DNA from: a virus
Lineage: Duplodnaviria > Heunggongvirae > Uroviricota > Caudoviricetes
Reading direction: 5' to 3' (one strand)
IMG/VR virus record: IMGVR_UViG_2634166457_000001
DNA length: 6,612 nucleotides
The notes under the pieces are model-generated. The model did not search any database. It saw nothing but the letters and a program-made list of their open reading frames with translations, and had not been told where the DNA came from. Position numbers and translations under genes: made by a program. Below are positions 1-6,612 of the stretch, one piece after another (the first letter of the stretch is position 1; each line of letters starts with the position of its first letter).

Positions 1-294
1 CGCTGTTGGTGGCGCTACTGAGCTGGACTATCCTTTTCGTGCCGTCGTGGCGTCCTGAGCGGTATATTTCCCGTTAGCAAGGTCATATGTTGCCTTTACC
101 GCCTTTGGTGTTGCCGCCAGCGTTTCTGAATCGCTGTTGGTGGCGCTACTGAGCTGGACAAGTCCTTTCCGTCGCTGTAGTGGCGTCCTGTGCGGTATAT
201 TTCCCGTTAGCAAGGTCATAGGCTGCCTTGACCGCTTTCGGCGTTGCGGCCAGTGCTTCAGACGTGCTGTTGGTGGCGCTACTGAGTTGAACAA
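1..294 (-). pseudogene. Out-of-frame continuation of the tail-fibre gene: repeat 2 is encoded in a second frame (ORF 28..294, ending TAG 28..30) and repeat 3 begins at about 28 and runs off the window start
   Basis: ORF 28..294 contains RKGLVQLSSATNSDSETLAATPKAVKATYDLANGKYTAQDATTARKG, a near-perfect copy of the repeat but in a different frame from ORF 146..829. Hand translation of 1..28 gives IVQLSSATNS back in the first frame. Confidence 0.6.
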
Positions 295-307
295 AGCCTT
301 TTGCGGT
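1..307 (-). repeat. Tandem direct repeats (period about 131-133 nt, about 2.3 copies in window, boundaries approximate) encoding the 44-aa tail-fibre repeat
   Basis: The plus-strand motif cgctgttggtggcgctactgagctggac occurs at 1..28 and 132..159, with the variant tgctgttggtggcgctactgagttgaac at 265..292. The encoded peptide repeat is LSSATNS-SE-LAATPKAVKA-YDLANGKYTAQDATTA. Confidence 0.85.
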
Positions 308-829
308 CAGCGAGGCGTCCGGGTGACGTCGTGACTGTTCATGTTCTTTCAGTTTGTCATTCACGTAATCCACTGTGGCCATAACCATGGTGTTATCCAC
401 GGTAAGCGCCACGGTGGCAGTGCTGGATACGGTCAGAATGGTGCGAAATGTTTGTGCACGTCCGGATCCTTCGGCAACGGCTGGCTTGTAACTTTCCGCA
501 GTATTGCCCACCGCGATCAAATCGCCGTGCTCATCAAATACACCAATTTCCCGGATCCAGAATCCGCCCGTTTCAGGAGGAATAACCAGCTCCGCAATAA
601 TGCGGTTCTGATGTGTTGCGTCCAGGATGACGCGATTAACAGTATGTCGCCACACCTCATGCACCAGACGGGTCTGCTTACTGTCTGGTGTGGGCAACGT
701 GCCGCCACCGTCGCCCACGGCCATGTGAGTCAGGCGGACAGGATTACCATCTGGCGCGGCTGCCTGAGCTAATTTTTTGGCACCAGTATCAGTGATAATG
801 GTTTTAAATTTTCGTGTTGTGGTACTCAT
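146..829 (-). CDS. H: Tail fibre protein, gpH-like N-terminal part (227 codons); the frame ends at TAG 146..148 after a frameshift inside the repeat region, and the gene's remainder lies beyond position 1
   Basis: ATG at 829..827. Translation MSTTTRKFKTIITDTGAKKLAQAA...MAVGDGGG...IAELVIPPE...AESYKPA...EHEQSRRHPDASLTAKGFVQLSSATNSTSEALAATPKAVKAAYDLANGKYTAQDATTA matches the conserved N-terminal domain and first 44-aa repeat of P2 tail fibre H as I recall it. Sits directly downstream of gpI, as in P2. Confidence 0.85.
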   Translation of the reverse strand: MSTTTRKFKTIITDTGAKKLAQAAAPDGNPVRLTHMAVGDGGGTLPTPDSKQTRLVHEVWRHTVNRVILDATHQNRIIAELVIPPETGGFWIREIGVFDEHGDLIAVGNTAESYKPAVAEGSGRAQTFRTILTVSSTATVALTVDNTMVMATVDYVNDKLKEHEQSRRHPDASLTAKGFVQLSSATNSTSEALAATPKAVKAAYDLANGKYTAQDATTATERTCPAQ

Positions 830-831
830 GC

Positions 832-1362
832 TTAATCGTCCGGATAAATGGTAATGACTTCACCGTCGTAAGTTGCTGCCGCCGTGAAAATATCCCCCGG
901 GATCTCCTGAATGATATTCAGCCCTGTCATGTGGCGGCTGACCGGGCGGGCATCAGCAATCAACCGCTCCATTTCCAGATACATTTCCTCCGTCACGCCA
1001 CTGTCCAGCGTGCCGACTTCAACGGTAAATGTTCCCGGTTCTCCGCCGAACTCCCACCACTCAGACACACGAATGAGGTATCCCAGCGGCTCAATGGCCC
1101 GGCGCAGTGCGCTGATGGTCCCTTTGTGTCGGTGTATCAGCCATGCATCACGAATCACCTGTCGCTTTGTCTCTTCCGGCCAGTTGCGATCCCAGCGGTC
1201 AACGGAAAATGCCCAGGCGAGATAAGGCAGCAGATGCACCGGGCAGGTGTCCGGCGACCACAGCGTGTTGAGGTCTACCGGAATGTCTGTAATGCGCGTT
1301 CCGACAGCTTCGGCACAACGCATGAAATTGCTGGCTGATGGCGGTAACAGTGAATTACTCAT
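832..1362 (-). CDS. I: Baseplate/tail formation protein gpI-like (176 aa)
   Basis: ATG at 1362..1360 overlaps the J stop (ATGAGTAA), with an AAGGTGG Shine-Dalgarno 5 nt upstream. Translation MSNSLLPPSAS...LWSPDTCPVHLLPYLAWAFSVDRWDRNWPE...GTISALRRAIEPLGY... resembles P2 gpI, and the 531-nt length matches P2 I as I remember it. The track's longer ORF (to 1395) is an upstream extension overlapping J. Confidence 0.85.
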   Translation of the reverse strand: MSNSLLPPSASNFMRCAEAVGTRITDIPVDLNTLWSPDTCPVHLLPYLAWAFSVDRWDRNWPEETKRQVIRDAWLIHRHKGTISALRRAIEPLGYLIRVSEWWEFGGEPGTFTVEVGTLDSGVTEEMYLEMERLIADARPVSRHMTGLNIIQEIPGDIFTAAATYDGEVITIYPDD

Positions 1363-5531: not shown

Positions 5532-5732
5532 CTATTCCCCCCACAACTGAATCATTTCTCGTTTCTTCTTCTCCGGCTCCGGCATCTCCACTTCCTGCCC
5601 GGCGTCCAGAAATACCTGCTGACAGAGCCCGGGGTTGGCATCCAGCACCTTTTCGGTGACGCCCTGCGTCGTGCCGTAGTACCGGAAACAGAGCGAATCC
5701 ACGGTGTCGCCTTCCAGTGCCTTCACCTTCAT
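5532..5732 (-). CDS. X: Tail protein gpX-like (small LysM-like protein, 66 aa)
   Basis: From ATG 5732: MKVKALEGDTVDSLCFRYYGTTQGVTEKVLDANPGL...QLWGE resembles P2 gpX (MKTFALQGDTLDAICVRYYGRTEGVVETVLAANPGL...NLWE). The ATG overlaps the upstream stop (TGATG). Confidence 0.85.
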   Translation of the reverse strand: MKVKALEGDTVDSLCFRYYGTTQGVTEKVLDANPGLCQQVFLDAGQEVEMPEPEKKKREMIQLWGE

Positions 5733-6612
5733 CAGCACAACTCCGCAAAGATTCGCGGGCGGCGCAGAATGTCAGAGATGGCCCAGCTCACATCGCGCCA
5801 CAAATCCGATGTCTGTATATCCAGTGCGTCCGCCCGGCGGTCGCCCTTGTCCGTTGTGTCCGCATCGCGGTAACGCTCCAGAATCAGGGCGCGTGTGGCG
5901 GTATAAACAGCATTGCGCCAGTGCCAGAGATTGACGCTTTCTCCGTTAATTACGGGTGCCGGAACATCGGCCAGCGTCTGATGGCCAGCCGCCTGCTGTT
6001 CCTGCTGCCATGCTTCCAGCTCGCGGGTAACGTGTGCCACGGCCCCAGTGGCGGTATGCAGCAGGCGGGAGGTGGTCACACGGCCCGGCAGTCGTACCGC
6101 CAGACGCAGCTCACGCAGCACAATATCCGGCCAGAATGCACCCGCTGAAATACGGGTATCACCATCATCGGTATCGGTGATGTCGTCCTGCGCCTGCGGT
6201 GTGCTGGCGTCTTCTGGTTCGGCTGCGGAATCGGCTTTTTTCAGGGCGCGGGAAAGGGTTGCAATCTCGCGTTTCACACCTGCGTTCGGGTTCAGGTGCA
6301 TCGCTTCGCGCAGCAGCTTCAGTGATGAGGCCATGCTGTCCGCATCGGTCAGGCCACGACGGGCAAAGGCACACGCCTTGCATAATTTGGCGCGCACTTC
6401 GTCCGGCATGTCCTGGTCGGTGACAATCTCCCGGAGGGTATCCAGTGGTTCGATAAAGGCGGATAAATCCGCGTCGGCATCCGTCCCGGCCTGCGTCAGT
6501 ACCGGGTTGCAGATTTCTTCGGTCAGTACCGTGGCAGCAGTACGGCCAAAGTTATCCGGCATAATGAGGTTGTGACGGACCACATACGCACCAATACGCA
6601 GCGCCAGCGGAA
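5732..6612 (-). CDS. Partial ORF, 5' end beyond the window: terminase small/endonuclease subunit gpM-like C-terminal region continuing in-frame, with no stop, into head completion/stabilisation protein gpL-like sequence
   Basis: Frame is open from 6612 down to TGA 5734..5732. The upstream part contains DMPDEVRAKL and AGVKREIATL, which I associate with P2-type gpM. The downstream part (FWPDIV...LADVPAPVINGES...LILERYRDADTTDKGDRRADALD...LWRDVSWAISDIL) occupies the gpL position immediately upstream of X. No ATG start for a separate L gene was found. Confidence 0.65.
   Translation of the reverse strand, partial: PLALRIGAYVVRHNLIMPDNFGRTAATVLTEEICNPVLTQAGTDADADLSAFIEPLDTLREIVTDQDMPDEVRAKLCKACAFARRGLTDADSMASSLKLLREAMHLNPNAGVKREIATLSRALKKADSAAEPEDASTPQAQDDITDTDDGDTRISAGAFWPDIVLRELRLAVRLPGRVTTSRLLHTATGAVAHVTRELEAWQQEQQAAGHQTLADVPAPVINGESVNLWHWRNAVYTATRALILERYRDADTTDKGDRRADALDIQTSDLWRDVSWAISDILRRPRIFAELC

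What the first reader, a model, noticed from the sequence alone, without database searches (positions are those of the whole stretch)
1..310. Tail-fibre gene H is interrupted by two opposite single-base indels, each at a junction between 44-aa repeats
Three copies of the tail-fibre repeat are present, but the middle copy is in a different frame from its neighbours. The linker encoding T-T-A-R-K-G-L between conserved caggacgcc and gtccagct should be 21 nt. It is 22 nt at the first junction (plus strand 160..181) and 20 nt at the second (plus strand 29..48). Frame A therefore stops at TAG 146..148 and frame B at TAG 28..30, while repeat 3 returns to frame A. The out-of-frame repeat still encodes a near-perfect peptide repeat, so the lesions are either very recent or are errors in a repetitive region. 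As written, the fibre is truncated after the N-terminal domain, implying a defective or tail-fibre-less prophage unless the shifts are bypassed.
Basis: seen in the sequence. Interest (0 to 1): 0.5.

Follow-up and report, generated by a model that had tools for sequence, protein, structure and literature searches.

The report
Tail-fibre frameshifts at a contig end
The two one-base frame shifts in this prophage tail-fibre gene are really in the deposited sequence, but they lie in the last 172 bases of a draft contig that stops inside a tandem repeat, so they are most likely assembly errors, not biology.

Summary
On the minus strand, the P2-type tail-fibre gene H starts at 829. Its linkers between 44-aa repeats are 22 nt (181..160) and 20 nt (48..29) instead of 21. 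This gives stops at 148..146 and 30..28, and repeat 3 returns to the first frame.

The window is exactly one contig of an Escherichia coli M114 draft scaffold (GCA_001186315.2, KQ241477.1). Position 1 abuts a run of 1369 N inside the repeat array. The two indels are the only indels in about 6.2 kb aligned to three close relatives. No other assembly examined carries either one.

The last 114 nt of the window reappear as the first 115 nt after the gap. There the linker is an intact 21 nt. Deleting the extra A at junction 1 and merging the two contigs through that overlap gives an uninterrupted 643-aa H. It differs at 2 residues from an intact H in a 99.7%-identical E. coli prophage. In that prophage the two contigs overlap and nothing is missing.

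The best reading is a contig-end or collapsed-repeat consensus artefact (about 0.8). The main rival is real decay (about 0.15). The same prophage also has a 217-nt gpM–gpL fusion deletion and two amber codons in its terminase gene. Only the reads or resequencing can settle it. Interest is low.

The parts
146..829 (-). Gene H as written: a 227-aa ORF with the N-terminal tail-collar fibre domain and repeat 1, ending at TAG 148..146.
   Evidence: Pfam PF12571 covers aa 6-153 (E = 6.5e-55) and PF03406 covers aa 173-213. The identical product is deposited as KNA40509.1, 'phage tail fiber [Escherichia coli M114]'.
169..301 (-). Repeat 1. It spans 133 nt because it contains the extra base. It encodes K177-GFVQLSSATNSTSEALAATPKAVKAAYDLANGKYTAQDATTA.
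160..181 (-). Junction 1 linker, 22 nt instead of 21: ACTACAGCG[A]CGGAAAGGACTT. The extra base is at window position 172 (or 173, depending on which relative it is aligned to).
37..168 (-). Repeat 2. It is 132 nt, internally intact, and reads in a shifted frame because of junction 1.
   Evidence: PF03406 hit with E = 6.6e-21.
29..48 (-). Junction 2 linker, 20 nt instead of 21: ACGACGGCACGAAAAGG[-]ATA. One A is missing between positions 32 and 31. The shifted-frame stop TAG is at 30..28.
1..36 (-). Stub of repeat 3, back in the first frame. Position 1 is the contig end, directly next to 1369 N in scaffold KQ241477.1.
1..114 (-). A stretch that is present a second time in the same scaffold, straight after the gap (L003 10199-10313). 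The two copies are identical except that the post-gap copy has the A missing here.
   Evidence: Both copies carry the strain-specific T>G change at H nucleotide 817.
832..1362 (-). Gene I (baseplate/tail protein, PF09684), immediately upstream of H. It is intact. It is listed here to fix the synteny V-W-J-I-H.

Best explanation
The two opposite one-base indels are most likely errors of the draft assembly, not mutations. Gene H of this P2-like prophage of E. coli M114 carries a tandem array of four 132-nt units that are 90-92% alike. The assembler could not traverse the array, so one contig (this window) stops inside unit 3 and the next contig starts inside unit 2. The scaffolder placed 1369 N between them, although on the evidence of the closest relatives they overlap by 115 nt.

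In the last 172 nt of the window contig, the consensus was probably built from reads of more than one repeat junction. That is an inference. At junction 1 both alleles of a column that differs between junction types (G in one, A in the other) were written one after the other. At junction 2 a column that differs between junction types (C/A) dropped out.

Shown: the position at a contig end, the internal contradiction at junction 2, the uniqueness of both indels, and the clean ORF after repair. Inferred: the consensus mechanism, and that the junction 1 insertion is an error. No second copy of junction 1 exists in the assembly.

The real gene is then an ordinary 643-aa tail fibre.
For: - The window is exactly the DNA between two N runs of scaffold KQ241477.1, and position 1 abuts 1369 N.
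- The two indels are the only indels in 6189 aligned nt against L001, L002 and L005. A further roughly 7 kb of the same scaffold aligned to close relatives has no indel in coding sequence apart from a 27-nt in-frame allele that an intact relative shares.
- The last 114 nt of the window equal the first 115 nt after the gap, except for the missing A. The same assembly therefore also contains junction 2 with a 21-nt linker.
- The pre-gap and post-gap contigs map to 10001-10829 and 10715-13614 of L013, a prophage 99.7-99.9% identical. They overlap, and no sequence is missing. The same holds against JNE181771.
- Dropping the extra A and merging through the overlap gives a 1932-nt ORF of 643 aa with no stop. 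It differs at 2 residues from the intact 643-aa protein P0013.
- Neither indel occurs in any of 5,426 complete E. coli genomes: 0 of 94 records matching junction 1 and 0 of 622 matching junction 2.
- The exact 227-aa product is recorded on this one contig only.
- All 22 linkers in 10 intact H genes are 21 nt.
- Both indels sit on columns that differ between the two junction types: column 25 (G/A) is written as GA, and column 35 (C/A) is lost.
- The 90% cluster that holds the fragment has 499 members. Fourteen of the 15 listed are labelled 'partial'.
Against: - No reads are available, so nothing here is direct proof.
- Junction 1 lies 172 nt from the contig end, and no second copy in the assembly contradicts it.
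- The other contig ends examined in this scaffold are free of indels within the part that could be aligned, so the assembly does not simply have noisy ends. Those ends are L011 8965 and 10001, and the start of the post-gap contig, which also lies inside the array.
- The same prophage has other lesions that look real: a 217-nt deletion at 7-nt microhomology that fuses gpM to gpL, and two amber substitutions in the terminase gene. Real frameshifts in a decaying element would therefore not be surprising.
- The scaffolder's estimate of 1369 nt could mean that the array is truly longer than in relatives. In that case the apparent overlap would be two different repeat units.
Confidence: 0.8

Rival explanations
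1. The frameshifts are real and recent, in a prophage that is already decaying. H is a pseudogene truncated after repeat 1, and the two indels arose independently after selection on the phage was lost.
For: - The same prophage has a 217-nt deletion that fuses gpM and gpL in frame at the microhomology AGGACGA (window 6183-6189). All ten listed best-matching complete E. coli genomes carry the extra DNA there.
- The terminase large-subunit gene differs from its closest complete-genome relative at only 3 bases. Two of them create TAG stops, W161* and Q450*.
- The closest relative, L013, has all of these genes intact, so the lesions are recent.
- Singleton lesions fit very recent mutation as well as they fit error.
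Against: - Two independent 1-nt indels would both have to fall in the 300-nt repeat array of a roughly 33-kb prophage. They would also have to land at homologous linker positions, with opposite sign, and on columns that differ between junction types.
- The post-gap contig holds the same 115 nt with an intact junction 2. A real junction 2 deletion therefore needs at least one extra repeat unit that no close relative has.
- Neither site is a homopolymer run or another mutable tract (read from the sequence).
Confidence: 0.15
2. The repeat array is truly expanded. The 1369-N gap would hide about ten more 132-nt units, giving a fibre gene of about 3.4 kb. The apparent overlap of the two contigs would then be two different but identical units. 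The indels could be real or not.
For: - The gap length is a specific estimate (1369), not a placeholder.
- H proteins in the database come in length classes 608, 652 and 696 aa, which differ by exactly one 44-aa unit. Copy number therefore does vary.
- Flanking contigs that each run a little way into an array of near-identical units would look just like this.
Against: - The other gap estimate in the same scaffold is off by about 600-700 nt: 1035 N where relatives have about 1.6-1.7 kb. These estimates are therefore unreliable.
- None of the 120 best relatives is longer than 710 aa.
- The two contigs tile without remainder onto two independent close relatives.
Confidence: 0.04
3. The shifts are read through by programmed ribosomal frameshifting, or they are switched by phase variation.
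For: Only that the second indel restores the frame, and that the out-of-frame unit still encodes a perfect repeat.
Against: - No relative has the shifts. All 22 linkers in 10 intact genes are 21 nt, and thousands of relatives are single ORFs.
- It would take a +1 event and then a -1 event within 140 nt.
- I saw no known slippery motif and no homopolymer or simple-sequence tract at either site (read; no motif scan was run).
- The shifted frame meets a stop 8 codons after junction 1.
Confidence: 0.01

Closest known systems
Tail fibre protein gpH of P2-like (Peduovirus-type) prophages of E. coli; nearest intact example P0013 (643 aa, E. coli GCA_013085585.1, locus L013)
   Same: - Same gene order: R-S-V-W-J-I-H, then a tail-fibre assembly gene.
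- Same domains: PF12571 N-terminal domain, PF03406 44-aa repeats and PF07484 collar.
- DNA identity is 99.7% over the window.
- After repair, the protein differs at 2 of 643 residues.
   Different: As deposited, the M114 copy has a 22-nt and a 20-nt linker and is split by an N gap. The junction 1 linker is of the ACTACAGCGCGG type, as in strain JNE181771, whereas L013 has the ACGACGGCACGA type there.
Phage P2 gene H itself (Peduovirus P2, NC_070905)
   Same: The N-terminal part is homologous, at about 80% DNA identity over query bases 300-900, which is the N-terminal domain region. The position in the late tail operon is the same.
   Different: The match to P2 does not extend into the 132-nt repeat-array part of the query at megablast level. 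This is a related prophage lineage, not P2.
Assembly errors at contig ends in collapsed or unresolved tandem repeats of short-read draft genomes (general knowledge of assembly practice, not a biological family)
   Same: - The indels sit at a contig end next to an N gap inside a tandem array.
- The flanking contigs overlap and were not merged.
- The gap size does not match relatives.
- The indels fall on columns that differ between repeat copies.

   Different: The sequencing platform and assembler for GCA_001186315.2 are unknown to me. The other contig ends of this scaffold that I could check are free of indels.

Membership tests
P2-type tail fibre gpH | N-terminal tail-collar fibre domain (Pfam PF12571) | tested here: met
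   E = 6.5e-55, 185.7 bits against a cut-off of 23, covering aa 6-153 of the 227-aa ORF.
P2-type tail fibre gpH | Tandem phage tail fibre repeats (Pfam PF03406) | tested here: met
   one hit in the frame-A ORF, one in the shifted-frame ORF, and four in the repaired 643-aa protein (E = 7.7e-80).
P2-type tail fibre gpH | Position downstream of V, W, J and I and upstream of a tail-fibre assembly gene | tested here: met
   A macro-domain gene lies between H and the assembly gene, as it does in the close relatives.
P2-type tail fibre gpH | A single uninterrupted reading frame through to the C-terminal receptor-binding part | tested here: not met
   As deposited, there are stops at 148..146 and 30..28, followed by an N gap. 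The feature is met only after one base is removed and the contigs are merged.
Assembly artefact (contig-end or collapsed tandem repeat) | The lesion lies at a contig end next to a gap, inside a repeat | tested here: met
   both indels are within 172 nt of the N run and inside the 132-nt array.
Assembly artefact (contig-end or collapsed tandem repeat) | The same assembly or independent data contradict the lesion | tested here: inconclusive
   Junction 2 is contradicted by the post-gap copy, provided the two contigs truly overlap. Junction 1 has no second copy.
Assembly artefact (contig-end or collapsed tandem repeat) | The reads do not support the indels | not testable with these tools
   No read data can be reached from here.
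True pseudogene in a decaying prophage | The lesion is reproduced in an independent assembly or in related strains | tested here: not met
   The exact product is on one contig only. None of the matching records among 5,426 complete E. coli genomes carries either indel. The scans of the GTDB and JGI collections were negative but had little power: the intact allele itself was found once and not at all.
True pseudogene in a decaying prophage | Other inactivating lesions in the same element | tested here: met
   The gpM-gpL fusion deletion and two amber codons in the terminase gene.
Programmed ribosomal frameshift or phase-variable tract | The shift site is conserved in relatives, with a slippery motif or a simple-sequence tract at the site | tested here: not met
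   every relative has 21-nt linkers and one frame. Neither site has a homopolymer run longer than 4 nt, and neither indel lies in such a run.

The most novel reading that the evidence does not exclude
The lesions are real. E. coli M114 would then carry a P2-like prophage caught very early in decay. Against a 99.7%-identical intact relative it would have five independent inactivating changes among only about 30 differences: two amber codons in the terminase gene, an in-frame gpM-gpL fusion deletion, and two frameshifts in H. The H repeat array might also be expanded by about 1.4 kb. Such an excess of knock-outs over neutral changes would point to selection for inactivation, or to an unusual mutational history of the strain.
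Probability: 0.12. Interest if true: 0.3.

Novelty: not a real feature. Interest (0 to 1): 0.07.

Why it matters
It matters mainly as a caution. A frame-shifted tail fibre in a draft genome looks like prophage decay, and GenBank annotates it that way, as a 227-aa 'phage tail fiber'. Here the lesions sit at a contig end inside a tandem repeat, and the same assembly contradicts one of them.

Pseudogene counts and calls of 'defective prophage' made from such drafts will be inflated at repeat-bearing fibre genes. Most listed members of the fragment's cluster are annotated as partial, which suggests H is often incomplete in drafts.

If the lesions were real after all, the finding would still be an ordinary prophage pseudogene. 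The only modest interest would lie in the number of independent knock-outs in one young prophage.

Tried and rejected
- **Programmed frameshifting or phase variation:** rejected. No relative has the shifts, I saw no slippery motif or repeat tract at either site, and a stop follows junction 1 after 8 codons.
- **IS element hidden in the 1369-N gap:** considered because the size fits many IS elements. Rejected as the main reading, because the two flanks share 114/115 nt. That is far more than any target-site duplication, and neither contig end carries non-H sequence.
- **Recombination or gene conversion between the two linker types as the source of the junction 1 insertion:** rejected. The two types are colinear, so any crossover would give 21 nt, not 22.
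- **A generally indel-prone assembly (noisy long reads or homopolymer errors):** rejected. Roughly 13 kb of the scaffold aligned to close relatives shows no other coding indel.
- **A global GC>AT damage or mutagenesis signature in the strain:** the three differences in the terminase region are all GC>AT. Over the whole locus only 13 of 28 substitutions against L013 are GC>AT, so there is no clear signature.
- **Exact-pattern scans for the junction 1 insertion:** nothing was found in the GTDB species genomes or in JGI metagenomes. The intact allele was itself found only 0 and 1 times, so these scans carry little weight.
- **Literature searches:** searches for the assembly accession and for strain M114 found nothing.
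- **Look-up with the 68-aa gpX reading:** it returned other strains, not the source scaffold. Those loci served only as extra intact H genes for the linker count.

Full report
**What is in the window.** The genes lie on the minus strand. They form the late region of a P2-like prophage. In order they are: part of the terminase small subunit gene M fused to L, then X, holin, endolysin, LysB/LysC, R, S, V, W, J, I and the start of the tail-fibre gene H. H begins at ATG 829 and runs off the window at position 1. Pfam places the N-terminal tail-collar fibre domain (PF12571, E = 6.5e-55) at aa 6-153. The tail-fibre repeat (PF03406) follows from aa 173.

**Checking the observation.**
- Frame A gives 227 aa and stops at TAG 148..146.
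- The second 44-aa unit reads perfectly in another frame and stops at TAG 30..28.
- The third unit (IVQLSSATNS) is back in frame A.
- The linker between CAGGACGCC and GTCCAGCT is 22 nt at 181..160 and 20 nt at 48..29. All 22 such linkers in 10 intact H genes of other E. coli prophages are 21 nt.
- Against the closest intact genes, the lesions are one extra base in GCG[A]CGG (window position 172) and one missing A in AAAAGG[A]ATAGTC (between positions 32 and 31).

**Where the window comes from.** The exact 227-aa product is recorded on a single contig. That contig is scaffold KQ241477.1 of GCA_001186315.2. The protein is deposited as KNA40509.1, 'phage tail fiber [Escherichia coli M114]'. The reverse complement of the window is exactly the DNA between two runs of N in that scaffold, one of 1035 N and one of 1369 N. 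Window position 1 is therefore a contig end, and the scaffold gap starts inside the repeat array of H. Both indels lie in the last 172 nt of the contig.

**The indels are isolated and unique.**
- Against three relatives (L001, L002, L005) the two indels are the only indels in 6189 aligned bases.
- Further parts of the same scaffold, about 7 kb, align to close relatives without any coding indel. The one exception is a 27-nt in-frame allele in the His-rich C-terminal part of H, which the intact relative P0013 shares.
- No complete E. coli genome in RefSeq has either indel. The 66-nt junction 1 query found 94 records and the junction 2 query found 622. The best identity in both was 98.5%, which is one gap.
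- Pattern scans of the GTDB species genomes and the JGI metagenomes found no copy of the junction 1 insertion. The intact allele was itself found only 0 and 1 times, so these scans say little.

**The assembly contradicts itself.** The last 114 nt of the window contig are identical to the first 115 nt after the gap, except that the post-gap copy has the missing A and so a 21-nt linker. Both copies carry the same strain-specific T>G change at H nucleotide 817.

On the two closest relatives the two contigs tile with a 115-nt overlap and nothing missing:
- JNE181771: H nucleotides 1-829 and 715-1959.
- L013 (E. coli GCA_013085585.1): positions 10001-10829 and 10715-13614. This prophage is 99.7% identical over the window and 99.9% identical after the gap.

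The 1369-N gap is therefore most likely spurious. The other gap estimate of the scaffold is also wrong, by about 600-700 nt: 1035 N where relatives have about 1.6-1.7 kb.

**The repair test.** Removing the extra A at junction 1 and merging the contigs through the overlap gives a 1932-nt ORF of 643 aa with no internal stop. A search of 5.8 billion proteins found an intact 643-aa E. coli tail fibre, P0013, that differs from the repaired protein at only two residues, M150V and L223I. Its prophage has intact P, M, L and H genes.

**A likely mechanism for the errors (inferred).** The 132-nt units 2 and 3 differ at 10 columns, six of them in the linker.
- The junction 1 linker type is ACTACAGCGCGGAAAGGACTT. 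The junction 2 type is ACGACGGCACGAAAAGGAATA.
- The window's junction 1 reads GC-G-A-CGG. At the column where the two types differ (G against A), both bases are present in series.
- The window's junction 2 has lost the column where they differ (C against A).
- This is what a consensus built from a pile-up of reads from two non-identical repeat junctions would give. A crossover between the two colinear linker types could not change the length.
- The 90% cluster that holds the 227-aa fragment has 499 members, and 14 of the 15 listed are labelled 'partial'. This suggests that H is often left incomplete in draft assemblies.

**Why the rival is not negligible.** The same prophage has other lesions that do not look like assembly errors.
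- At window 6183-6189, a 217-nt deletion between two copies of AGGACGA removes the end of gpM, the intergenic region and the first 13 codons of gpL. It fuses the two genes in frame. All ten listed best-matching complete E. coli genomes carry the extra DNA at that point.
- Just outside the window, the terminase large-subunit gene differs from its closest complete-genome relative at only three bases, all GC>AT. Two of them create TAG stops, W161* and Q450*.

If these are real, the prophage is already defective, and real frameshifts in H would be unremarkable. Against that, two independent real 1-nt indels would both have to fall in the 300-nt array. They would have to sit at homologous linker positions, with opposite sign, on columns that differ between the junction types. 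A real junction 2 deletion would also need an extra repeat unit that no close relative has. The other contig ends I could check are free of indels within their aligned parts, so the claim is not that this assembly has noisy ends in general. The claim concerns only this end, inside the array.

**Verdict.** I put about 0.8 on an assembly artefact and 0.15 on real recent lesions. I put 0.04 on a truly expanded array and 0.01 on programmed bypass of the shifts. The underlying gene is an ordinary P2-type tail fibre. Only the reads or resequencing can close the question.

Noticed in passing
window 6183-6189 (minus strand); fused ORF 5732-6610: A 217-nt deletion relative to the close relatives examined. 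It lies between two copies of AGGACGA and fuses the terminase small subunit gene M (which loses its basic C-terminal tail) in frame to head-completion gene L from codon 14. All ten listed best-matching complete E. coli genomes carry the extra DNA at this point. It is deposited as KNA40520.1, 'phage head completion protein, partial'.
   Followed up: partly
L011 6923-6925 and 7790-7792 (same scaffold, outside the window): The terminase large-subunit gene P has two amber codons, W161* (TGG>TAG) and Q450* (CAG>TAG), and no indels. It differs from the closest complete genome (E. coli 7_33_46A) at only 3 of 1801 bases, all GC>AT. Two stops among three changes is far more than chance would give (about 1% by my estimate).
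   Followed up: partly
window 1 and 6612 (both ends); L003 1183-2217 and 8830-10198: Both ends of the window are contig ends at scaffold gaps. Neither gap length agrees with close relatives: 1035 N where relatives have about 1.6-1.7 kb (the rest of gene O, all of the capsid gene N and the start of M), and 1369 N where the flanks overlap by 115 nt.
   Followed up: yes
L003 11413-12315 and 12946-13518: A 300-aa macro-domain protein gene sits between H and the tail-fibre assembly gene. A serine acetyltransferase gene lies just downstream on the other strand. Both are present in the close relatives as well. They look like cargo genes of this prophage lineage.
   Followed up: no
H genes of L001, L013, L014 and proteins P0001-P0120: H proteins fall into length classes 608, 652 and 696 aa, which differ by exactly one 44-aa unit. 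The junction 1 linker is of one sequence type in JNE181771 and of the other in L013, although the two genes are otherwise 99% alike. Both facts point to unit gain or loss and to gene conversion within the array.
   Followed up: partly
L003 about 11290-11300 (H C-terminal His-rich part, after the gap): A 27-nt in-frame deletion (IGAHTHTVG) relative to JNE181771 in a short HTH-rich repeat. The intact 643-aa proteins P0013 and P0064 share it, so it is a real allele and not an error.
   Followed up: yes
cluster of KNA40509.1: The 90% cluster that holds the 227-aa fragment has 499 members. Fourteen of the 15 listed are 'partial' H proteins of 81-268 aa from draft E. coli assemblies.
   Followed up: no
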